Source of the DNA: Candidatus Eremiobacteria bacterium
Lineage (GTDB): Bacteria > Vulcanimicrobiota > Vulcanimicrobiia > Vulcanimicrobiales > Vulcanimicrobiaceae
DNA length: 64,000 bases
Direction: 5' to 3'
Assembly: GCA_963737065.1 (NCBI GenBank)
Contig: CAVTRC010000001.1
Coordinates: forward strand, 640,001 to 704,000
Part shown: piece after piece, positions 17,905-29,050 of the stretch
Position numbering within the stretch: position 1 is the first letter of the stretch
How the letters are laid out: each line of letters begins with the position of its first letter
Position numbers and translations under genes: made by a program
The notes under the pieces: model-generated
Seen by the model: only the letters and a program-made list of their open reading frames with translations
Databases searched by the model: none
What the model was told of the DNA's origin: nothing

Positions 17905-18594
17905 TCAGCGGCAACGATTGACGAGCGGTTGAACGAGCGCGCGCACTTCCGACTCTTCGACGCCGATTCTATACTGTGTGAGCGCGACGTCGACGGCAAT
18001 GTTTCCGTACGCGTCCGCCGAGATCAAATTACCATACGAGAAGTCTTTCGGAGCGCGGAGCCGCGTTTCACTTGCTTGTGTCGTTTGAACGGTGCGGTCT
18101 TGTTGCGCGTCGGGACGGACCATCGCTGCCATGGGATTCTTGAAGTTTTCAATGTCCGCAAGCTCCTGTGTGTCGGCCGTCCCCGAAAACTCGTTCAGTG
18201 AGTCCGCCTGAAGGTCCGCAACCACCGATAGCCGCGCACCGAGCGAAGCAACTTCGTGCGCTTCTTGAGGATCCTTGAGCGCGACGGTTGCGAGTTTTTC
18301 GAGCAGCGCATGGATCTTGATGTTGTTTGCGGCTACGTCGTCGACGACGTCCAAAAGGTGCACGTTATCCGCTTCAACCCATCCGTCGCTCTGCGCGACG
18401 TCCATTTTGGCCATGTCTTGTAAGAGCTCGCGCCCTCGGTCGATCATGCCGTCCTGAATAAAAAGGCCTTGGATCGACGGCGCGACGATCGTGCGCACGG
18501 CATTGCACAGTACCGACGTTTTCGTCGTCACGATGATCGGCAGCGGAGTCGCCGGCGCGGCGGGAACGACTACGGCAAGTAGTAACGCGAGCAT
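17905..18594 (-). CDS. Secreted, mostly helical hypothetical protein
   Basis: GAGGGA RBS, ATG 18594, short hydrophobic signal, PAAPATP linker, one Cys near each end. Confidence 0.7.
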   Translation of the reverse strand: MLALLLAVVVPAAPATPLPIIVTTKTSVLCNAVRTIVAPSIQGLFIQDGMIDRGRELLQDMAKMDVAQSDGWVEADNVHLLDVVDDVAANNIKIHALLEKLATVALKDPQEAHEVASLGARLSVVADLQADSLNEFSGTADTQELADIENFKNPMAAMVRPDAQQDRTVQTTQASETRLRAPKDFSYGNLISADAYGNIAVDVALTQYRIGVEESEVRALVQPLVNRCR

Positions 18595-18756
18595 CGTACT
18601 TCCCTCATATGATTGCGCTGCTCTGCGCGAACGCTTCGCGATTGCGCTCGGTGACGCGTGATAGGTACCATGCCGGGGTTTTGCTCGTGGCGCGTAACAC
18701 GTCAACGGCTCCCGCGAAAGTCACCTGTGTAAAGAGTCCGTAAACTATTAGGACCA

Positions 18757-19012: not shown

Positions 19013-19230
19013 CGGCGTTATGCGGTGACGGCGTTGGGGTCGCTATCAATTATGTTGAGTGCGACTCTCACGATCGCGTGATTTTATAGGTGGCGTAAAG
19101 GAAGCGATAACTTGCGGTTAGTCGCCGCCTCGCAAGCGACCGCCTGTGATATTGTAAGACCCGTTCAAGCGTTGGCGCTCTGATTGTTTTTAGAGCGCGG
19201 CGCACGTTCTTGCGTTAAAAAGGGGGCGCC

Positions 19231-19713
19231 ATGTATTGGTACTGCCGGGCATTTCTTTTGTCTTTTTTTGCAATCGTCGGCACGACGGCGGCGATGGCGG
19301 CCGCACCGAACGTCACGCTGCGGCTCGACGCCGCACTCGTTCACGTCGTAAACGGCAAGGTGACGACATCGGCTGTCGATCGTCCGCTCAAGGCCGGTGA
19401 CGTGATCGAATATCGCATCGTTGCGCGTAATGCCGGCAATGCCTCGGCGTTGGCGTTTTCGCCCCTAGGGAAAGTTCCCGCGCATACCGAGTTTTTGCAA
19501 AATGAAGGCGCGAGTCGCGCGGCGCGCGCTTCATATACGCTCGATGGAACGCATTGGTCGGAACATCCCATGGTCCGTGCAGTGAAATCGTCGGGACACG
19601 TCGTTATGGAACCGGCGCCGCGCTCGCTCTATCGCGCGGTGCGATGGACGCTCTCGGGCGCGCTCGTGCCGTCGCAAACGGCGACGTTCGCGTATGAAGT
19701 GCGCGTGCAATGA
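19231..19713 (+). CDS. Secreted single DUF11-like Ig domain protein (candidate chaperone or cap of a fibre system)
   Basis: Signal peptide; LKAGDVIEYRIVARNAG, VPAHTEF, SYTLDG, VRWTL...LVPSQTATFAYEVRVQ. Confidence 0.8.
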   Translation: MYWYCRAFLLSFFAIVGTTAAMAAAPNVTLRLDAALVHVVNGKVTTSAVDRPLKAGDVIEYRIVARNAGNASALAFSPLGKVPAHTEFLQNEGASRAARASYTLDGTHWSEHPMVRAVKSSGHVVMEPAPRSLYRAVRWTLSGALVPSQTATFAYEVRVQ

Positions 19714-22187
19714 AACTCCACCGGTCTCTTGCGGCGGCGGGCGCGTTTGCGCTCGCCGTTCAACTCACGTCGCCGCTCACGGTTAATGCCGCGAACGGCC
19801 ACGACGACCCCGGAACGCAGGTGACGAACACCGCGAACGCAGTCTATAAAGACGCCGGCGGAAACTCGTACACCACCACCTCCAATACGGTAACGGTGAC
19901 GGTGCAAAACGCGCCGACTCTAACGAATACGCCGGGCACCGGTTCCCCGTATGCGCCGGGACAGGTCGTAACCGACACGTTCGTGCTCACGAACACCGGT
20001 AACGGCGCGGGCACGTTCCAAGTCTCCGATACGTCATCCGCGCCTACGGCGAGCTCCGATGCGGTGCTCGGCGGAAGCGATGCGGCAGCGGCGACGCTCG
20101 GCAACGGCGCGGCGACGTGCACGACACCCGCCGGCTCGCAATCGGCGCCGTGCAAATACGCGGCGACGGTCGGCGGCACGACATACTATTTCACGAGCCT
20201 CAATGGAACGAGCGACAACAACTCGCTCGACTATTGGCTACTCCACACGAATCCGGCGACCGCCGCAGGTTCGTCGATCACCGTCTCCGTGTACTACGCG
20301 CTCGCGACGAGTGCTTCGACGCCCGCGACGGTAACATCGAGCATCTACGCATCGGTGGCGTATCCTGCCGCAGGCAGTGCGCCTGCTACGACGTCGTCCT
20401 CTGTCAACGCAACGGAGTCGAATACCGTTACCGCGGACGCGCGCCTCGACTTGTACAAGGCGAGCAGTCAGAATCCGGCGACCGGCGACATCACGTACAC
20501 GGTCTCTGCGCACAACGGAGGCGCGTTTGCCGCGAAGGATCTGCAATCGGTGAAAGCGCTGCTCGGCAGTGCGACTGCGGGCGTGCTGATCTCCGACAAG
20601 GTTCCGCAGTTCGGTGGGTCGCCGCTTTCGCTCAGCAATTCGGGCACGGTCACCGTTACGCCGAACGCGACGTATGGATTTGCGACCGGCGCGACGGCCG
20701 ACCTGTATTACTCGACGTCGGCAACCGGTACGACTAGCTGGACGAAAGCGACAGGAAATCTTCCGACGGACGGCAGCGTAACCTACGTTGCAATCTTCAT
20801 TCACGGTGGGACCTGCACGAGCGCCGGATACGAGCTGTGCGCGGACACCGGTCATGCGACGACGCCCGGTAACAGCAACGTTGCCTCCGCTGCGGCGATT
20901 GCGTTCTCGTTCACGGTCGTTCAGCCGAGTGGGCCCGGATCGGCCAACGCGAACGCAGTCAAAAACCTCGCGAACGGTGTCATCGGCGACAACCAGTCGA
21001 CGGAGCACATACTCGGACCGGGCATTCCGGGCGGAACGGCCGATACGCCATCGGCGACGCCCATCACAACGAGCGGTCAAGGCATAAACAACACCACGAA
21101 CACCTCGACGAACGGCGCGTCCAATCAGATCGGAAATCAAGCCCTTGCGTCGTACGCGCCGCAAAACGGTCCGTTCGGACAACCGGCCGCCGTTGGGTCG
21201 TATGACGGCGTCGTCGGATCGAATGGATCCAACGATTTCACAGCGTTTCCTTTCGGTCTCGCGGGCGATAGCGTCGTTAATACGAGTACGACGGTGGGAT
21301 CACCGGTAACCGCGGCAACGCTGGGCTCCGCGCAAACGATCTGCGTCGCGCATACGCTCAAAAACAACGGGAATCACGACGACTCGTTCAACATCGTCGC
21401 CACCGTTCCAACGGCATACCAGGTTCCGTCGACCAGCGGTGGAACTGCGGTCGCCGGCTGGAAGACCGGCGTTTATTCCGATGCGGCGTGCAGCGCCGCG
21501 CTCGGCGGATCGACCGACGGATCGCCGGCGGCGACCGCATCGAACGTTGCGATCGCCTCGGGCAACTCGCTCAACTATTACGTGAAATACGTCATTCCAG
21601 CGGGAGTGAAGTACTTCTACCGCTTTGACGCTTCGATCGTTGCGACCAGTGTCGGCAGCGGTTCGCAAAGCGACTCGACGCACGATGAACTTTACTCGGG
21701 ATTCGTCGCGCTCACGAAATCGCAGAATGTCACGAGCAACGGTTGCCCTTCGGGTGTGTCGCCGTCGTATGCAGCCGGCACCGTCTGTCCGACCGGCGTG
21801 ATCGCCTACACGGTCGACTATCGCAACCTCGTGATGGGCACGAGCAGCACCAACATCTCGTTCAACGCGTGCACGACGCAAGCGGGATCGTTGCAGATAA
21901 CGGATGACGGCACGCTCTCGACATCCAGCTCGACGACCACCGTCGCCAATTGGGCATCGTTTGCATCAATGACGGCCGCTCCGTCGGACTCGAGCGCCTC
22001 GTCGTCGTTCACGTACGCCACCGGCGTTCCCGCGGCCGGCGCAAGCCCGACGTGGAGTGCGGCGGCGACGAAGTTTGTCGACACGGTCGGTGGCTCGTCG
22101 TTCCAACTCGTTCCAAAAAACTACAGCGGTCCGTCGGCAACGCAAGGCAATCAGGGGACGGTGACGTTCTCCATCGCGGTGAAGTAA
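19710..22187 (+). CDS. Secreted Ser/Thr/Gly-rich multi-Ig DUF11-type protein (candidate major fibre subunit)
   Basis: Signal peptide; N-terminal PGTQVTNTANAVY...SNTVTVTV; internal LDLYK...ISDKVP...VKNLAN; C-terminal ALTKSQ...GVIAYTVDYRN...GTVTFSIAVK; ATGA overlap. Confidence 0.8.
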   Translation: MKLHRSLAAAGAFALAVQLTSPLTVNAANGHDDPGTQVTNTANAVYKDAGGNSYTTTSNTVTVTVQNAPTLTNTPGTGSPYAPGQVVTDTFVLTNTGNGAGTFQVSDTSSAPTASSDAVLGGSDAAAATLGNGAATCTTPAGSQSAPCKYAATVGGTTYYFTSLNGTSDNNSLDYWLLHTNPATAAGSSITVSVYYALATSASTPATVTSSIYASVAYPAAGSAPATTSSSVNATESNTVTADARLDLYKASSQNPATGDITYTVSAHNGGAFAAKDLQSVKALLGSATAGVLISDKVPQFGGSPLSLSNSGTVTVTPNATYGFATGATADLYYSTSATGTTSWTKATGNLPTDGSVTYVAIFIHGGTCTSAGYELCADTGHATTPGNSNVASAAAIAFSFTVVQPSGPGSANANAVKNLANGVIGDNQSTEHILGPGIPGGTADTPSATPITTSGQGINNTTNTSTNGASNQIGNQALASYAPQNGPFGQPAAVGSYDGVVGSNGSNDFTAFPFGLAGDSVVNTSTTVGSPVTAATLGSAQTICVAHTLKNNGNHDDSFNIVATVPTAYQVPSTSGGTAVAGWKTGVYSDAACSAALGGSTDGSPAATASNVAIASGNSLNYYVKYVIPAGVKYFYRFDASIVATSVGSGSQSDSTHDELYSGFVALTKSQNVTSNGCPSGVSPSYAAGTVCPTGVIAYTVDYRNLVMGTSSTNISFNACTTQAGSLQITDDGTLSTSSSTTTVANWASFASMTAAPSDSSASSSFTYATGVPAAGASPTWSAAATKFVDTVGGSSFQLVPKNYSGPSATQGNQGTVTFSIAVK

Positions 22188-22191
22188 CGAC

Positions 22192-24297
22192 GTGAACCGC
22201 TTCGGTTGGATCGCGGCGATCGTGCTGTGCGCTCTTGCAGCACAGCACGTCGCCGCGTCCCCGACCGGCGGAACGAGCATCGTGAACGAAGCGTCCGCAA
22301 CGTATAGCGATGTCTTCTCGCACGCCTATCAGACCACTTCCAATGCGATCGTCTCGCAAGTCGTGAGCCTCTCGTCGCTCGTCGTCTCGCCGAAACAAAA
22401 TGCGGCGGCACCGGCGTCGGATACGGTTGCGGTGAACGCATCCGCCACGCGCGTCTTCACGATCACCAACACATCGAACATCACCGACGCGTATCGCATC
22501 ACGAGTCTCCAGACGGGGCCACTCGGCGTTACGTCGATTGCATGGATCACACCGCCGGGATCGCTCGCCACGGCGGTCAACGGGAGTGCATCGCCCCAGA
22601 TCGGGCCCGGTTCATCGATCTCCGTTCGCGTGACGCTTTCTACGAGCGGACTCAACGTCGGCCAGTCGGTTCCGATCGCGCTCACCGCGCAGACGACGGT
22701 GACGCAGACCGGAAACGGTCTCGCGCACGATAGCGGTATGGAATGGGTGATCGGTGCGACGGGCCCGCACTTTTCGGGGCCGGCCGGTGCAAACACCACC
22801 GTCCTGAAGACCGTAAATAATGCGAGGCAGGTACAGACCCAACCGGGCGCAACCGTGACATTTCACATTGCTGCACTCAATAGCGGCGGCGCCGCGGCGA
22901 CGAACGTGCAGATCAGCGATCCGGTACCGGCGGGGTTGCGGGTTGATCTGTCATCGGCAGAGTTGAACGGTCAACCCGCGGGCGCGCAAGCGTCACTGAG
23001 CGGAAACACAATCGTGTTTCGCGTTCCGTCGATCGGCGCCCAGCAAAGCGTCGATGCGACGTTCAACGCGATCCTTCCGCCGGGAGAATCGCTCGGCGAG
23101 TCCTTCGTGAACGTCGCGACGACAGCCGCAGACGGCATTCCCGCAACCGCAACGACTCCCGCCGATGTTTTTTCTGGTTCATCGAACATCGTCTTCGATG
23201 GTTTTGCGGGTGCTGGACATCCGATCGCCGGCGCGGTTATCGCGCTGCTCGATGCGAACGGGAAACCGGTCGGAATCAACGCGCCGAATCCGTCGGTTAC
23301 CGGACCGGACGGCAAGTACGCGCTCCCGCTTTCAGTTCAACTGATTCCCGCAGCGGGCGCGCATTTTACGCTGACGATTTCGGCACCGTCGTATCTAAAC
23401 CGGCGCATCACCCTGGTGATTACGCCCACCGCGAACGGGTTCTACAACGTCTCCGAAACATCGGCTGACGCGCAACCGATCGCGGCGGCCGGCGGCTTCA
23501 CCCTCACGATGAACAACGTTCATCTTCAAGACGTCTTCGGGCTGTTCGGCAACCTGCCGCTCTTCGCGCTCAGAACGATCTCCGTCACGAAGACGTCCGA
23601 CAAACAAGCGGCGTCTGCGGGGGACCGGGTGATCTTCACACTCGGTCTGCAAAATCAAACGACGTTTGGAATCGCGAACGTTCGTGTCGTCGATACGATG
23701 CAAGCCGGATTTGCGTATCTGAACGGAACGGCGAGAGTTGACGGGCTTCCACTCGAACCGCTGGTATCTGGACGCACGCTTTCGTGGGTCTTTTCATCGA
23801 TTGCACCGGCGCAGATGCACACGATCACCTATGGCGCAACGATCGTGCCCGGCGTTGCTGCGGGAAGTACCCTTGCGAACAGCGTTTCGGTGAACGGCAG
23901 CGCGGCGATCGGCGGCGTGAATACCGGCGCTTCCGCAAGTACGAGCGTGATGGTCATCGACGGCGTGCTTTCCATGCGCCGCGTCGTGACCGGTAGAGTA
24001 TTCTTCGACGACGCGCATCGCGGTTATTTCGTGCGCGGCGACCGCGCGATCTCCAGCGTTCGCGTCGTCCTTGAAGACGGTTCGTTCGCGATCACCGATT
24101 CCGGCGGCGCGTTTTCGTTTCCGTCCGTTCGCCCCGGATTGCATGTCGTGCGAATCGATCCGCTGACGTTGCCGGCGTCCGCGCGCGCACAGAGTGATGC
24201 GCCGATGAATTCCAGTCGCTCGTACGAGCAGCTATTGCACGGCGTGCTCGACGACGGAACGATGGAAGACGTCGAATTTGCGGTGGCACCGCGATGA
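22192..24297 (+). CDS. Secreted protein with two DUF11 domains and a C-terminal SdrD-B/carboxypeptidase-regulatory-like domain (candidate base subunit)
   Basis: GTSIVNEASATY; VLKTV...QISDPVPAGL...FVNVA; VTKTSDK...VVDTM...LANSV; GRVFFDD...LEDGSFAITDSGGAFSF..VRPGLHVVRID. Confidence 0.8.
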   Translation: MNRFGWIAAIVLCALAAQHVAASPTGGTSIVNEASATYSDVFSHAYQTTSNAIVSQVVSLSSLVVSPKQNAAAPASDTVAVNASATRVFTITNTSNITDAYRITSLQTGPLGVTSIAWITPPGSLATAVNGSASPQIGPGSSISVRVTLSTSGLNVGQSVPIALTAQTTVTQTGNGLAHDSGMEWVIGATGPHFSGPAGANTTVLKTVNNARQVQTQPGATVTFHIAALNSGGAAATNVQISDPVPAGLRVDLSSAELNGQPAGAQASLSGNTIVFRVPSIGAQQSVDATFNAILPPGESLGESFVNVATTAADGIPATATTPADVFSGSSNIVFDGFAGAGHPIAGAVIALLDANGKPVGINAPNPSVTGPDGKYALPLSVQLIPAAGAHFTLTISAPSYLNRRITLVITPTANGFYNVSETSADAQPIAAAGGFTLTMNNVHLQDVFGLFGNLPLFALRTISVTKTSDKQAASAGDRVIFTLGLQNQTTFGIANVRVVDTMQAGFAYLNGTARVDGLPLEPLVSGRTLSWVFSSIAPAQMHTITYGATIVPGVAAGSTLANSVSVNGSAAIGGVNTGASASTSVMVIDGVLSMRRVVTGRVFFDDAHRGYFVRGDRAISSVRVVLEDGSFAITDSGGAFSFPSVRPGLHVVRIDPLTLPASARAQSDAPMNSSRSYEQLLHGVLDDGTMEDVEFAVAPR

Positions 24298-27200
24298 AGC
24301 GGTTGGGAAGAGCGTTGCAGTGTGCGGGCGCCGCGCTTATGGTCGCGTCGTTTATGACGTCGATGACGACCCGCGTTTCCGATGCCGATACGGCGGCCGG
24401 CGCGGCGACGGCAACGTTCGTCGCGCCGAACCCGGGCAGCGCTGCGCCGATCGGCGCAACCAACGTCATCATCTCGACCCAACTCGGCAGTTCGATCGAG
24501 TTGCTCGACGACGGCGAACTCGTCGACGGAAAGCACCTCGGTAAGCGAACGTTCAACAAATCGACCGGCGAGGCGCAATGGTTTTTCTACGGCGTCACAT
24601 TGCACCCGGGACCGAACGAACTCGTCGCGACCGCGCTCCGCGCGCCCGGGTTACGTGGAACGCCGGCGACATTGACCGTCTATGGACCCGGTGACGCGCA
24701 GACAATTCGCGCGGAGTTCGGATCGCATTTACGTGCCGATGGAAAAACGATCGCTCCGCTCAATATTACGGTCAGCGACCGGTACGGCAATGCTGCGGCG
24801 CCCGCGCAACGTGTGGACGTGCGAATTTTGCGCGGAAACGTAACCTTCGGCGATCTGCCGAAAGACGGTACGAACGCCGCACCGGCGTCGCCGGACGTTC
24901 TCACTTCGCCCGCGCCGCAGGGCGCGCTTTCCGCGCAAGTGCCGCTTCCCGTCGGTGGATATCTGTCGCTTCCCGTCGTGTCGGGAACGCTCGCCGGCGC
25001 ATTCGACATCGAGGTACGCGTCGGCAACGCGTATCTTCGGCGTTCGTTCTACGTCGAGCCATACGTTCGCCCCGCATTCGTTACGGGGCTTGCGTCGGTC
25101 GGCGTCGGCGCCGTCCCGGGTGACGTCGACGGCGACGGTATCGAAGACGGCGGCGGAGCGCGCCGCGAGCGCGCAGCGATTTTCGCAACGGGAGCCGTTG
25201 GACGCACGCTCGTGACCGCCGGCTACGAATCGCAAAACCGTCTGTCGCCCGTTTCGTCTCTCGGTGCGCCGGTCGATTCGCCCAATAGCCGTCCGTATTT
25301 GACGTACGGCGACAGCTCGACGATCGCACAGCCGTATCGCTCGCAAGATCACTTCTACGCGCGCGTGGATCGCGGAAGGTCGAGCGCATTGTGGGGGCAG
25401 TACGTTGCGGACGTCGGGCCACCGGACGTGGGCGGATATCAGCAGCTCTTGAACGGCGCGAAGGTCGATGTGTCGCTCGGTGCGAGCGGACGCGCGCGTG
25501 TAACCGCGTTTACCGCGCGCAATCAGCAAGCGTTCATTTCGACGATTCTTCCGTTGACGGGACTCGCCACGCTTTCCGCACCGCTTCACCCCGACATCGT
25601 CGTCGGCTCGGATCTGCTGCAGTTGGTGACGCTCGACCGCGCGACGGGTTTGATGATTCGAGAGACACCACTCTTGCGAAACGTCGACTACACAATCGAT
25701 TACGCGACGGGCATCCTGCGTTTCATCAACGTACCGCTACCGTACGACCCGCAGTTCAATCCGCAAGTCGTCTCGCTGCAATACGAATACCAGGGGCCGG
25801 GCGTCGCATCACAGACGACCGGTGCGCAGGTCAGCTACGCGCTTTCCCTCGACGGCCGCACGACGGCCCGTGCAGGTTACGTCAACGACGCAACCGGAAC
25901 GCAAAATTTCGCGCTCGTCACACAATCGCTAGCGCGGACATGGGCGAACGGATCGTTTACCGTTTCTCATGCTTCCAGCGCCGGGTTCGTTCCGAGCGCC
26001 GGAAGCTCGACGCAACTGGGCGCGGCGACCGTGGTGCCGCATAACGGCGAAGCGATCTCCGTCGCGCTCGATGAACGGAATGCCACGAATGCCGTTGCGC
26101 TCGGATATCAGTCGACTAGCGCGGGTTATAACGATCCGTTCGGTGGATTCAGCTCGCCCGGAACGCGCGCATATCGTGCGATCTATTCACTCGGCACGGC
26201 GCGTGCCGGTCAACTGCAAATGAACCTCTCGGGTGAAAGTAACACCGGCATCGGAGCGGCAAGCAGCGAGCTCGACGGTGCGGTGACGTACCTGCGCGCC
26301 CTCACGTCCCGCTTGACGATGAGCGCGGGCGTTGCCGAGCATCGCCAAACGATCGGGGCGCAGCCGTCGGCGTCTCCCGCTGCGAACGTCGCATTAGCGA
26401 ATACGCAGCAGACGCAGGCGCAGGCATCCCTCACCTACCGCATGCCGGAGCGTCTCGGCATTTCGGTTTCGGAATCCGACACGCTGCGCGGCAGTGATGC
26501 GGGCTCAACGCAACCGTCTCAGACGCAACTCGAAGCGACGTACGACTTGCCAAAGCGCGGCCGTTTGTTCTTCCGCGAACTTTGGAGCGATCAACCGTCG
26601 GCGACGTTTGCGAATTCAACGGCAAATCTCAATATCGCGTCGGGCTCGACCCATTCGATGCAATTCGGGGTCGAACAGCCGCTCTCGGCGGCAACGACGG
26701 TTAGCTCGCAATACGTCATCGATCAAGTCGCGTCGGGCGTGAATATCTATGCCGCGGCAGGCATTGACGAACGCGTGCATCTCGGCAAAGCAATTGCCGG
26801 AAACTTGACGTTGCAATCGGCAAACGCAGTTGGCGCGGGAGCGGAGGGATTCACCGTTCTCGGTGCCGCGCTCACATACGCGCCGGCGAGCGGGAAGTTT
26901 CGCAGTTCGGTTTCGTATCAAGATCGAACGGGCGCGTCGTCCGGATCGACCGTTTCCGCGGCAATCGCAGGTCATATCAGCGACGCTCTCTCAGCGGTGG
27001 GCTTCATTCAACGCGCATACGGCAACGGGATCAACGCGATCGACGATCGGTTGTCGGTTGCGTATCGTCCGCGCGCCGACGATCGCCTCATCTCACTCTT
27101 CGATTACGAGCGAGGCAACGAGACCGGGCTCGCCGGTGAAGCGGCGAACGTCGCCTCGTTCGAAGAGTTGTTTCGCATGACGCAGACCTTTGAACTCGCC

Positions 27201-27527
27201 GGCCGGTTTGCATACAAATTCGACGGCGGCGGCGAGTACGCGGCGCGCACCGTGCTGTGGTTGGGACGCGCAACGCAGCATGTCGGCTCGCGCGGTGATG
27301 TCGCGCTCGAGGCGCGGACGGCCATCGTTCCGGGCGCGACCGGCGCACGCACGACCGCCGTCGCCGCCGAAGCCGGCGAGACCATTGGGCGCACGGCGCG
27401 CGCCGCGGTTGGTTACAACATCGCCGGAAGCGTCGATCCGTCGCTGCTCGGCGTCCCGCAACGCAAAGGCATCTACATAACCTTCACAACGCTGATCGAT
27501 CGTATCTTCGGGTGGGGAAAACCATGA
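24294..27527 (+). CDS. Large outer-membrane beta-barrel protein with periplasmic Ig-like domains (candidate secretion/assembly platform)
   Basis: Signal peptide; LRADGK...ITVSDRYGN Ig-like motif; YLTYGDSS; LLRNVDYTIDYATGILRF; several hundred aa of alternating Y/F/G-rich strands; ATGA overlaps at both ends. Confidence 0.75.
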   Translation: MKRLGRALQCAGAALMVASFMTSMTTRVSDADTAAGAATATFVAPNPGSAAPIGATNVIISTQLGSSIELLDDGELVDGKHLGKRTFNKSTGEAQWFFYGVTLHPGPNELVATALRAPGLRGTPATLTVYGPGDAQTIRAEFGSHLRADGKTIAPLNITVSDRYGNAAAPAQRVDVRILRGNVTFGDLPKDGTNAAPASPDVLTSPAPQGALSAQVPLPVGGYLSLPVVSGTLAGAFDIEVRVGNAYLRRSFYVEPYVRPAFVTGLASVGVGAVPGDVDGDGIEDGGGARRERAAIFATGAVGRTLVTAGYESQNRLSPVSSLGAPVDSPNSRPYLTYGDSSTIAQPYRSQDHFYARVDRGRSSALWGQYVADVGPPDVGGYQQLLNGAKVDVSLGASGRARVTAFTARNQQAFISTILPLTGLATLSAPLHPDIVVGSDLLQLVTLDRATGLMIRETPLLRNVDYTIDYATGILRFINVPLPYDPQFNPQVVSLQYEYQGPGVASQTTGAQVSYALSLDGRTTARAGYVNDATGTQNFALVTQSLARTWANGSFTVSHASSAGFVPSAGSSTQLGAATVVPHNGEAISVALDERNATNAVALGYQSTSAGYNDPFGGFSSPGTRAYRAIYSLGTARAGQLQMNLSGESNTGIGAASSELDGAVTYLRALTSRLTMSAGVAEHRQTIGAQPSASPAANVALANTQQTQAQASLTYRMPERLGISVSESDTLRGSDAGSTQPSQTQLEATYDLPKRGRLFFRELWSDQPSATFANSTANLNIASGSTHSMQFGVEQPLSAATTVSSQYVIDQVASGVNIYAAAGIDERVHLGKAIAGNLTLQSANAVGAGAEGFTVLGAALTYAPASGKFRSSVSYQDRTGASSGSTVSAAIAGHISDALSAVGFIQRAYGNGINAIDDRLSVAYRPRADDRLISLFDYERGNETGLAGEAANVASFEELFRMTQTFELAGRFAYKFDGGGEYAARTVLWLGRATQHVGSRGDVALEARTAIVPGATGARTTAVAAEAGETIGRTARAAVGYNIAGSVDPSLLGVPQRKGIYITFTTLIDRIFGWGKP

Positions 27528-29050
27528 CGCGGCTATTGATGCGTCTCGTGGTCGCGGCGGCGTTCGCGATCGTGACGTGCGCGTTTGCGAGCGCCTCGAC
27601 GATCATGGTCTTGAGCGACAGCGCGGGCGTCTATTTGATCGATTCCGCGACCGGCAAAGTCGTTCAGTCGTACGGCAACCTCTTCTCCGGAAGCAGCGCG
27701 CAGGACGTCGCTGAAGACCTCAACGGCAACCTGTACGTGACCGATAGCTCCGGCAACCTCCGAAAGGCGACGTTCAACGCGAACGCCGGATCGTCGACCG
27801 GCGCGTATGCCGCGGCGACCGTCGTCGGCGCGATCCCCGGATATACTTCCGCGGTTGCGCGTCTTGCGTGGGATCCCACCACGTTGTATTGCGCGACCGG
27901 CTGCCTCGTGACGATGAACAGCAGCGGAAATTCGCTCGATTGGATCAATCCGGCGACGGCCGCCATCGTAAAAAGCGTCGCGGTGAGTCCGGCCATCTCG
28001 GGTGGCGGCGACCTTGTCATCGACCCCACTGCGGTGAACAACGCGGCCGTCTACGTCGTCTCCGGAAAAGCGTTTTACAGCGTCAATCCGTCGACGGGCG
28101 CGTCGACCTCGATCGCGACGTTTTCGTGGCCGGGGCTCACGGCGAATCTGACGGGACTTGCGCTCCTGGCGAACGGCGATCTGGTTGGATGCGAACAAAA
28201 AGGCAGCGGAACGGCCTGGACGCTTTGGGAATTCACGACCGCCGGAGCGCTCGTCACGAGCCAAACGGGCATTAGCACCGGAAGCGACGTGGTGAACGAC
28301 CTCGCTTCGGTTCCGGCGACGTTCACGACGTCGAAAACCGGCACCGCGAATGCGGGCCTCGGCGACACGATGATTTATACCGTCACATTGAAGAACACGA
28401 GTTACTTCACCGTGCCGACGGCCGCGATGACCGACCCATATCCTTCGACGATCAGCGTTTTATCGTCGCCGGCGCCGTCGTGCAGTGTTTCCGGCGGCGG
28501 CAGTTGCACCGCGACGCTGAACCCGAGCGCAAGCCCTTCGCCCGACGTTGTCGCAAGCGTTACGAACTTGGCCGCCGGCGCAACCGCCACGATGACGTTC
28601 GAAGGTTCACCGAGCGCGAGTGCGAGCGGGACCGTCTCGAACACGGCAAACTCGAGCGTTCCGTTCGATCCCAACGAGTACGGCGGCTCGACCGCTGCAA
28701 CGAACACCATCAACACAACGATCACGGCGTCCGAATTTGCGAAACAGGTAGCAAACATCACGGAGGGCCTTGCGCCGGGCACGAGCTTGATCGGCAAACC
28801 GGGTGATGTCGTGGAATACACCCTGACGTTCACGAACCGCCGCGGCTTTTCGCTGGCGTCCTTTCAAATCAACGACCCGGTGCCGACGGGAACGACGTAC
28901 GTCGCAAACAGCGCAACGTGCATAAGTCAGCCCGCGGGGCTCACCTGCGCGCCGTCGCAGTCAGGCGGCGTCGTGTCGTTTGTTTACACCGGCACGAGCT
29001 TGGCCGCCAACGGCGTCGTCAGCGCAAAGTTCCGCGTAACGATCAACTAA
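27524..29050 (+). CDS. Secreted beta-propeller + two DUF11 domain protein (candidate tip adhesin)
   Basis: Repeated blades (LIDSATG, DLNGNLYV, INPATA, VNPSTGA); TTSKTG...MTDPYP...VSNTA; FAKQV...PGDVVEYTLTFTN...INDPVPTGTTYV...AKFRVTIN. Confidence 0.8.
   Translation: MTRLLMRLVVAAAFAIVTCAFASASTIMVLSDSAGVYLIDSATGKVVQSYGNLFSGSSAQDVAEDLNGNLYVTDSSGNLRKATFNANAGSSTGAYAAATVVGAIPGYTSAVARLAWDPTTLYCATGCLVTMNSSGNSLDWINPATAAIVKSVAVSPAISGGGDLVIDPTAVNNAAVYVVSGKAFYSVNPSTGASTSIATFSWPGLTANLTGLALLANGDLVGCEQKGSGTAWTLWEFTTAGALVTSQTGISTGSDVVNDLASVPATFTTSKTGTANAGLGDTMIYTVTLKNTSYFTVPTAAMTDPYPSTISVLSSPAPSCSVSGGGSCTATLNPSASPSPDVVASVTNLAAGATATMTFEGSPSASASGTVSNTANSSVPFDPNEYGGSTAATNTINTTITASEFAKQVANITEGLAPGTSLIGKPGDVVEYTLTFTNRRGFSLASFQINDPVPTGTTYVANSATCISQPAGLTCAPSQSGGVVSFVYTGTSLAANGVVSAKFRVTIN

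What the first reader, a model, noticed from the sequence alone, without database searches (positions are those of the whole stretch)
19231..19713. First operon gene is a non-reactive acceptor domain: possible chaperone or chain cap
Seen: one DUF11-like domain that also ends without the Asn strand (TATFAYEVRVQ). It has Arg at the Lys position (VTLRLDA) and LGKVP where the reactive domains have xxDxVP. It carries a distinctive YTLDG...P...YRAVRW insertion. Inference: it could bind donor strands reversibly and prevent premature periplasmic polymerisation, the reverse of PapD, which donates a strand.
Basis: inference. Interest (0 to 1): 0.72.

Follow-up and report, generated by a model that had tools for sequence, protein, structure and literature searches.

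The report
Inert acceptor-type domain of fibre operon
The first gene of this operon encodes a small secreted protein that looks like the strand-accepting end domain of the neighbouring surface-fibre subunits but lacks their bond-forming residues, so it probably helps or caps fibre assembly without being locked in.

Summary
It belongs to a widespread family of about 160-aa secreted, basic, single-domain DUF11/CLIPPER-like proteins. The family stops right after the strand that precedes the Asn strand in complete domains. It has no conserved Lys and usually no catalytic Asp: both together occur in 4 of 148 homologues. Its Asp-box-like half is also found in the reactive C-terminal acceptor domain of the fibre subunit in other phyla (hhalign 97% probability), so g1 is a free-standing, catalytically dead copy of that domain. 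In 79 of 84 loci with a large next ORF, that ORF's product starts with an Asn-bearing donor hairpin; 40 of the 79 overlap g1 by 4 nt. The order g1-g2-g3-g4 is kept across many phyla. "Non-reactive acceptor" is supported; "chaperone or cap" remains inference. My best reading, at about 0.4, is a reversible decoy acceptor for the donor hairpin. The main rivals are a closed accessory domain and a non-covalent tip. No paper describing this diderm system was found.

The parts
19220..19226 (+). Shine-Dalgarno-like AAGGGGG, 4 nt before the ATG of g1
   Evidence: read directly from the sequence; not tested further
19231..19713 (+). g1: 160-aa secreted single-domain DUF11/CLIPPER-like protein (the finding)
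19231..19299 (+). probable Sec signal peptide (res 1-23, ...AMA|A)
   Evidence: hydrophobic N-terminus read by eye; modelled as helix 2-18; no signal-peptide predictor was available
19312..19332 (+). first strand, VTLRLDA; region of the lost isopeptide Lys
   Evidence: columns 28/30/32 are hydrophobic; column 31 has K 41/148 and column 32 has K 0/148; the alignments disagree on the exact equivalent
19465..19479 (+). LGKVP, aligned with xDxxP of reactive domains; the Asp position is G80
   Evidence: hhalign to g3 domains and to Latescibacterota-type g2C; column 80 counts are G71, D25, A17 of 148
19534..19647 (+). Asp-box-like insertion, YTLDGTHW ... YRAVRW (res 102-139), including hairpin 114-128
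   Evidence: D105 61/62, P113 61/62, R138 56/62; weak Asp-box hits; also present in the g2 C-terminal domain of other phyla
19678..19710 (+). last strand, TATFAYEVRVQ; the protein ends where complete domains continue with the Asn strand
   Evidence: hhalign end at template column 95-98 of 141; 59/62 homologues end here, with last residue K40, R11, Q5
19710..22187 (+). g2: 825-aa subunit with an N-terminal donor hairpin and a C-terminal acceptor domain; its start overlaps the g1 stop (ATGA)
   Evidence: orthologue alignment A4 has N40 invariant and K670 and E/D732 at >=90%
19812..19907 (+). g2 donor hairpin (res 35-66) with invariant Asn40
   Evidence: A4; homologous to the g3 hairpin at 98.8% probability, E 6e-17; it lands on the Asn strand of complete domains, but only weakly (E 0.007-0.08)
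21693..22184 (+). g2 C-terminal acceptor domain (about res 662-825; K670, D732; ends ...AVK with no Asn strand)
22192..24297 (+). g3: 701 aa, with an N-terminal donor hairpin (22270-22365, N32 invariant), two complete DUF11 domains, and CarboxypepD_reg-like and SdrD_B-like parts
   Evidence: fused N-terminally to g4 in 14 loci of other phyla
24294..27527 (+). g4: 1077 aa with no family hit; probable outer-membrane barrel (inference only)
   Evidence: 0 Pfam families; Atlas neighbours are mostly 'hypothetical', with one 'outer membrane protein' cluster at 0.90; always follows g3
27512..29050 (+). g5: 512 aa, variable fifth gene; two DUF11 domains, the last one (28724-29047) ending without an Asn strand but showing K411 and D455 by eye
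   Evidence: replaced by other genes in relatives

Best explanation
g1 is a free-standing, catalytically dead copy of the terminal acceptor domain of the fibre subunits. In this operon, g2 and g3 start with a two-strand hairpin that carries the isopeptide Asn. g2 (and g5) end with a CLIPPER-type domain that keeps the Lys and the acidic residue but lacks those two strands. The subunits can therefore join head to tail and probably lock covalently. That is inference, with precedents in BsaA and the archaeal threads. g1 has the acceptor architecture without the reactive residues. It is made together with g2 and exported by Sec. The most likely mechanism is that it takes up the donor hairpin of newly exported g2 by beta-strand complementation without locking it. 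It would act as a decoy acceptor that holds or caps the donor end, prevents self-cyclisation or premature polymerisation, and releases the hairpin at the g3/g4 assembly site. Shown here: the homology, the loss of the triad, the truncation point, the synteny and the coupling. Inferred: binding, reversibility and cellular location.
For: - g1 family against the Latescibacterota-type g2 C-terminal acceptor domain: hhalign 97.4%, E 1.1e-11, 100 columns up to the last strand. All 6 of those g2 domains keep K and D.
- g1 ends at column 95-98 of 141 of complete domains.
- No conserved Lys; K31 together with D/E80 occurs in 4 of 148. In contrast, g2 has K670 and E/D732 at >=90% and N40 invariant in 20 orthologues.
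- Of 89 unique g1 genes, 86 have >=1.1 kb downstream and 84 have an ORF >=250 aa next. 79 of those carry the donor motif, and 40 of the 79 overlap g1 by 4 nt.
- The order g1-g2-g3-g4 is kept in 10 of 10 relatives' loci and in most of 79 loci from at least 10 phyla.
- The g1-g2 pair is duplicated as a unit in L027.
- Both g1 and g2 end in a hydrophobic-x-hydrophobic-Lys C-terminus: g1 has K61 and R4 of 70; g2 has K 51 of 77.
- g1 is basic (median pI 9.7; 56 of 62 above 8), while g2 and g3 are acidic (4.6 and 5.4).
- All 16 g1-positive relatives also have g4.
- The g4-like genes that have no g1/g2/g3 near them (L113, L114) show no split subunit gene nearby. In G012 the ORF next to the barrel gene begins with a complete domain, not a donor hairpin.
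Against: - No binding test could be run.
- The AF2 monomer is confident on its own (pLDDT 93.6), which is compatible with a closed fold.
- g1 has an extended first hairpin and a hairpin at 114-128 where the reactive Latescibacterota-type acceptor has a short Gly-rich loop. Either could fill the donor slot in cis.
- P0084 has two g1-type domains in tandem with no donor strands between them.
- The VIA alignment to 9IFR spans chain residues 18-109, which includes the Asn-strand region. I cannot reconcile this with the sequence alignment without coordinates.
- Homology to this lineage's own g2 acceptor domain is weak (22 columns, 27% probability).
- The loci were found through g1 itself and many come from one phylum, so the counts are not independent.
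Confidence: 0.4

Rival explanations
1. g1 is a closed, self-sufficient Ig-like accessory domain. Its own inserted hairpins replace the missing two strands, and it does not take up donor hairpins. It would act through other surfaces, for example as a periplasmic adaptor for the g4 barrel, as a carbohydrate- or envelope-binding module (Asp-box half, basic charge), or by lending a hairpin to the g2 groove as PapD does.
For: - Confident monomer model.
- g1-specific hairpins are absent from the reactive Latescibacterota-type acceptor.
- Tandem g1-type domains occur without donor strands in P0084.
- The VIA alignment to 9IFR covers the Asn-strand region.
- Basic pI.
Against: - This lineage's own reactive g2 acceptor also has a long first-hairpin region and a long insertion, yet keeps K670 and E/D732, so extra strands do not exclude an open slot.
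- The shared truncation point and the shared C-terminal Lys with g2 suggest the same partner.
- Covariation gave no stable contact between the hairpin and the last strand.
Confidence: 0.3
2. g1 is a permanent, non-covalent distal tip or initiator subunit. Like the pilin domain of a chaperone-usher tip adhesin, it is acceptor-only, receives the donor of the first g2 and stays at the fibre end.
For: - g1 has acceptor architecture and no donor of its own.
- g3 is donor-only and is fused to the barrel protein in 14 loci, which gives the same polarity logic as chaperone-usher pili (recalled).
- g1 is the only acceptor-only protein present in all cassettes, while g5-type genes vary.
Against: - g1 is the first gene and overlaps g2 by 4 nt, which suggests an amount near that of g2 rather than one per fibre. 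In the archaeal thread the putative cap is expressed at a lower level (PMC9715654, passages seen).
- There is no obvious reason for a permanent cap to lose Lys and Asp when g5 keeps them by eye.
Confidence: 0.2
3. g1 is an unrelated small secreted DUF11 protein that merely sits next to the fibre genes.
For: Its own Pfam scores are below the cut-off, and no experiment links it to the fibre.
Against: Adjacency and order are conserved across at least 10 phyla, the genes overlap by 4 nt, and g1 is duplicated together with g2.
Confidence: 0.05

Closest known systems
CLIPPER / DUF11 (PF01345) intramolecular isopeptide domain, PDB 9IFR (PMC12617251; passages read)
   Different: g1 has no Asn strand, no conserved Lys and usually no Asp. 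It carries an Asp-box-like insertion. It stands alone as a 137-aa mature protein rather than as a repeat in a stalk.
Periplasmic chaperones of chaperone-usher pili (PapD, FimC); properties recalled, family membership tested by Pfam
   Same: Both are small, basic, Ig-like, Sec-exported proteins encoded with the subunits and a large outer-membrane protein. Both are proposed to hold subunits by strand complementation until assembly.
   Different: No sequence relation: there was no PapD-family Pfam hit. g1 has one domain, not two. It would accept the subunit's strands rather than donate one. The fibre here is probably locked covalently.
Clostridium perfringens BsaA (TasA family): donor-strand exchange followed by an intermolecular Asn-Lys isopeptide bond catalysed by Glu (PMC11580942; passages read)
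   Same: The operon-level logic is the same: the N-terminal strand of one subunit enters the next subunit and an Asn-Lys bond forms with an acidic catalyst.
   Different: The fold family is different, the organism is monoderm, there is no barrel protein, and no dead-acceptor paralogue is described in the passages seen.
Archaeal thread Saci_0406 with putative cap Saci_0405 (PMC9715654; passages read)
   Same: It is a donor-strand filament with isopeptide bonds and a co-transcribed small putative cap.
   Different: That cap is donor-only (a strand but no acceptor site) and is expressed at a lower level. g1 is acceptor-only and is the first gene.
ElrE chaperone of the enterococcal WxL pilus (bioRxiv 10.64898/2026.10.17.759780; abstract read)
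   Same: A conserved chaperone-pilin core with variable tips and anchors, matching the constant g1-g2-g3-g4 core and the variable fifth gene.
   Different: ElrE donates a strand, is membrane-anchored and belongs to another family.
Engineered non-reactive SpyCatcher variants used for reversible SpyTag capture (recalled, not checked in any call)
   Same: A catcher domain that binds the tag strand but cannot form the isopeptide bond.
   Different: It is man-made, derived from a CnaB2 domain and binds a single strand.

Membership tests
CLIPPER / DUF11 (PF01345) | Sequence match above Pfam's gathering score | tested here: not met
   g1 scores 16.7 bits against the 24.6 cut-off. 50 of 62 homologues match at E<=0.01, best 2.2e-8. 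hhalign to the operon's complete DUF11 domains gives 90-94% probability. g1 is therefore a homologue but a divergent one.
CLIPPER / DUF11 (PF01345) | CnaA-like Ig fold | tested here: met
   [not shown]
CLIPPER / DUF11 (PF01345) | Lys-Asn isopeptide with catalytic Asp within one domain | tested here: not met
   There is no Asn strand; g1 ends at column 95-98 of 141. There is no conserved Lys. The Asp column holds G80. K and D/E together occur in 4 of 148.
Terminal acceptor domain of the split-CLIPPER fibre subunits (g2 C-terminus; not a curated family) | Homology over the whole domain and the same truncation point | tested here: met
   97.4% probability, E 1.1e-11, 100 columns against the Latescibacterota-type g2 C-terminus. 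Only 22 columns and 27% probability against this lineage's g2 C-terminus.
Terminal acceptor domain of the split-CLIPPER fibre subunits (g2 C-terminus; not a curated family) | Conserved Lys and acidic catalyst | tested here: not met
   g2 has K670 and E/D732 at >=90% of 20 sequences. g1 has them together in 4 of 148.
Terminal acceptor domain of the split-CLIPPER fibre subunits (g2 C-terminus; not a curated family) | Takes up the donor hairpin of another subunit | not testable with these tools
Chaperone-usher periplasmic chaperones (PapD family) | Two Ig-like domains matching the PapD N- and C-terminal Pfam families | tested here: not met
   No such hit at E<=1; the model has a single domain.
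Asp-box / BNR motif (PF02012) | S-x-D-x-G-x-T-W hairpin | tested here: inconclusive
   The family consensus SLDGGKTWS fits the recalled motif, and g1 itself has the shorter TLDGTHW. There is a BNR hit in 1 of 62 at E 0.007 and a sialidase Asp-box match at E 0.074.

The most novel reading that the evidence does not exclude
g1 is a natural 'dead catcher': a periplasmic decoy acceptor. It would capture the Asn-bearing donor hairpin of each subunit as it emerges from Sec, prevent irreversible self-cyclisation or premature covalent polymerisation, and hand the hairpin over at the barrel. That would be the first assembly chaperone known to work by accepting rather than donating strands, and a core part of an undescribed, widespread, covalently locked fibre system of diderm bacteria.
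Probability: 0.25. Interest if true: 0.85.

Novelty: new variant of a known kind. Interest (0 to 1): 0.68.

Why it matters
- If the operon builds a fibre from split isopeptide domains, it is a natural counterpart of the SpyTag/SpyCatcher chemistry in diderm bacteria, with its own outer-membrane machinery.
- Cassettes were found in Eremiobacterota/Vulcanimicrobiota, Armatimonadota, Cyanobacteriota, Gemmatimonadota, Latescibacterota, Deinococcus, Proteobacteria and others.
- Any self-reacting subunit must be kept from reacting too early. A conserved, non-reactive copy of the acceptor, made together with the subunit, is an obvious candidate for that control.
- Showing how g1 works would explain how irreversible polymerisation is timed. 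It could also provide a natural reversible binder for such hairpins.
- Cultured Deinococcus species carry the cassette, so the question can be tested directly.

Tried and rejected
- **Complex prediction.** No other tool was used for it.
- **First structure job.** With 3 sequences it gave a poor model (pLDDT 69.4) and a useless Foldseek list.
- **Sequence searches of the PDB.** The single-sequence search for g1 found nothing meaningful (best E 0.23), and the search with one g3 domain found nothing at E<=1.
- **Word-index search.** g1 alone found only 2 relatives.
- **The search for related loci.** The 62-row alignment failed for lack of a conserved block. A 12-row alignment worked.
- **Covariation (mean-field DCA written by me).**
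  - With 113 sequences (Neff 87) and 212 sequences (Neff 148), it recovered the two known hairpins.
  - It hinted at contacts of residues 112-119 with 151-159 and with 26-29.
  - These signals vanished when sequences with gaps there were removed (118 sequences, Neff 71).
  - The canonical sheet pairs were never recovered.
  - I therefore reject this analysis as evidence either way.
- **Idea that the g4 N-terminus carries a non-reactive donor for g1.** The alignment of 9 g4 N-termini shows no donor-like pattern.
- **Apparent g1-g2 fusions in L043 and L050.** These are overlapping frames, not fusions (coordinates).
- **Promoter and terminator scan.** It gave fewer sites than the shuffles.
- **Sequencing runs.** None was listed, so expression was not examined.
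- **Earlier-findings look-ups.** By place, by sequence and by one word set they returned nothing.
- **Paper searches.** Searches listed no paper on this diderm system. Only listings, and the passages named elsewhere in this report, were seen.

Full report
**What is there**

The window holds a co-directional cluster:
- g1, 19231-19713, 160 aa
- g2, 19710-22187, 825 aa
- g3, 22192-24297, 701 aa
- g4, 24294-27527, 1077 aa
- g5, 27512-29050, 512 aa

The cluster lies after a 525-bp gap from a divergent ORF. g1 has a Shine-Dalgarno-like AAGGGGG 4 nt upstream, and its stop overlaps the g2 start (ATGA). The closest named cassettes are on Vulcanimicrobiota/Eremiobacterota MAG contigs.

**Family**

- On its own, g1 is below the curated cut-offs: PF01345 E 0.0095, TIGR01451 E 2e-4.
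- An exhaustive profile search found 2279 proteins at E<=1e-3 and 426 at E<=1e-10.
- Of the 150 listed hits plus two earlier ones, 66 are 330 aa or shorter.
- I aligned 62 of these. I dropped P0042, P0082 and P0090, which diverge or stop early at the C-terminus, and P0084, a 320-aa tandem form.
- 50 of the 62 hit PF01345 at E<=0.01.
- 59 of the 62 end in the same column as g1, with last residue K40, R11, Q5.
- A second search gave 107 proteins. Their sources call them 'uncharacterized repeat protein (TIGR01451 family)', 'DUF11 domain-containing protein' or 'hypothetical protein'.
- Atlas neighbours are clusters of about 163-165 aa with the same names.
- The own genome has one g1, one g2, one g3 and one g4.

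**Fold**

**The triad**

CLIPPER/DUF11 domains form a Lys-Asn isopeptide bond catalysed by Asp: K715, D748 and N806 in 9IFR (PMC12617251; passages).
- Profile-profile alignment of the g1 family to the two complete domains of g3 (90-94% probability) ends at template column 95-98 of 141. The Asn strand and the last strand therefore have no counterpart in g1.
- The Asp aligns with G80. Over 148 unique g1-type sequences that column holds G71, D25, A17, N13, L13, E3.
- The Lys equivalent is ambiguous (R31/L32, the H38-V39 gap, or S47, depending on the template). No column from 26 to 50 has a conserved Lys: the maximum is K 41/148 at column 31, and column 32 has none.
- K31 together with D/E80 occurs in 4 of 148.
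- The Asp is kept in some lineages (Latescibacterota-type, zeta- and gammaproteobacterial loci), so its loss is not universal.

**Donors and acceptors around g1**

- g2 and g3 begin, after their signal peptides, with homologous hairpins (98.8% probability, E 6e-17).
- The hairpin Asn is invariant: N40 in 20 g2 orthologues and N32 in 18 g3 orthologues.
- The hairpins align to the Asn strand of complete domains at the expected place, but weakly (E 0.007-0.08).
- The g2 C-terminal domain keeps K670 and E/D732 in at least 90% of 20 orthologues and ends without an Asn strand.
- This is the anatomy of a split isopeptide domain. Three earlier notes of this scan describe the same kind of operon in other genomes. 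They are leads, not evidence.

**g1 is a copy of the acceptor domain**

In Latescibacterota-type, Krumholzibacteriia and Bipolaricaulota loci, the g2 C-terminal domain carries the same Asp-box-like half as g1. It aligns to the g1 family at 97.4% probability (E 1.1e-11, 100 columns up to the last strand). All 6 such domains keep the Lys and the Asp. Giant DUF11 repeat proteins lack this half: of 1129 domain hits, 925 end at profile position 70-79 and only the 2 in P0084 reach the end. Against this lineage's own g2 C-terminus the match is only local (22 columns, 27% probability).

**Context**

- The order g1-g2-g3-g4 is kept in 10 of 10 loci fetched from relatives, at 33-42% g1 identity, and in most of 79 loci from many phyla.
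- After removing duplicates there are 89 g1 genes. 86 have at least 1.1 kb downstream and 84 have an ORF of 250 aa or more starting within -30 to +300 nt.
- 79 of those ORFs carry the donor motif in their first 110 residues, and 40 of the 79 overlap g1 by 4 nt. Three of the five exceptions are cyanobacterial loci with the order g2-g1-g3-g4.
- The g1-g2 pair is duplicated as a unit in L027 (the same contig as L047).
- g3 and g4 are one ORF in 14 loci.
- Among 61 relatives (own genome included), g1 was found in 16, g4 in 22 and g3 in 19. The g4 and g3 tallies include one genome flagged unpublished, on which no claim rests. All 16 g1-positive genomes have g4.
- Two g4-like genes (L113 from G012; L114 from G009 contig 43) have no g1, g2 or g3 nearby. 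In G012 the gene lies beside giant DUF11 ORFs whose first domain is complete.
- These loci were found through g1 and many are kin, so the counts overstate independence.

**Other properties**

The g1 family is basic (median pI 9.7; 56 of 62 above 8). g2 and g3 are acidic (4.6 and 5.4). Both g1 and g2 usually end in Lys.

**Reading**

What is shown is that g1 is an obligatory-looking, inert paralogue of the acceptor domain, made together with g2. What is not shown is that it binds a donor hairpin.
- For binding: the shared architecture, truncation point and C-terminus; the coupling to g2; and the logic that a subunit carrying both reactive halves needs one of them masked after export.
- Against binding: g1-specific hairpins (28-48 and 114-128) that the reactive Latescibacterota-type acceptor lacks and that could fill the slot; the tandem protein P0084; the confident monomer model; and a VIA alignment range to 9IFR that I cannot reconcile with the sequence alignment.

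My own covariation analysis gave no stable answer. I put the reversible decoy acceptor at 0.4, a closed accessory domain at 0.3, a permanent non-covalent tip at 0.2 and an unrelated neighbour at 0.05.

**Literature**

Four full-text searches listed no paper on such a system in diderm bacteria. The nearest precedents are:
- BsaA (PMC11580942; passages)
- the archaeal thread with its donor-only putative cap (PMC9715654; passages)
- the strand-donating chaperone ElrE (preprint abstract)

Statements about PapD/FimC, type V pili, CsgC and engineered Spy variants are recalled, not checked. Supplements were not consulted.

Noticed in passing
L074, L075, L076, L078, L088-L090, L092-L094, L097, L101, L106, L111: In 14 loci of other phyla, g3 and g4 are one ORF of about 1600-2250 aa, with the g3 part N-terminal and the g4 part C-terminal. 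This argues that g3 is physically attached to the barrel protein.
   Followed up: partly
L027 2693-11052 (the same contig as L047): Tandem duplication of the g1-g2 pair ahead of a single g3-g4.
   Followed up: no
L113 2734-5865 and L115 3922-18749 (G012); L114 10696-13629 (G009): g4-like barrel genes lacking about 150-220 N-terminal profile positions, with no g1, g2 or g3 nearby. In G012 the gene lies next to giant multi-DUF11 ORFs that start with a complete domain and end with a g3-like C-terminus. This may be a single-chain variant of the system.
   Followed up: partly
protein P0084 (320 aa): Two g1-type domains in tandem with no Asn strand between them. The first has a Gly-rich loop where g1 has hairpin 114-128.
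   Followed up: partly
L072 7368-16513 and L095 7080-17060 (Cyanobacteriota MAGs): The gene order is g2-g1-g3-g4, with a short (about 500-aa) g3 and a long (1520-1660-aa) g4.
   Followed up: no
own genome G000:C1:1474965-1482091, outside the window: Two adjacent ORFs of 1092 and 1137 aa with several DUF11-type domains and no g1 or g4 nearby.
   Followed up: no
window 19708-19710 and 22182-22184; loci: g1 and g2 share a conserved C-terminal Lys directly after the last strand (g1: K61 and R4 of 70; g2: K 51 of 77). The window's own g1 ends in Gln. The complete domains in g3 and g5 do not have a basic residue there (by eye).
   Followed up: partly
[not shown]
   Followed up: no
window 17905-18705 (-): Divergent upstream ORF of 266 aa with a hydrophobic N-terminal stretch and no family hit.
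   Followed up: no
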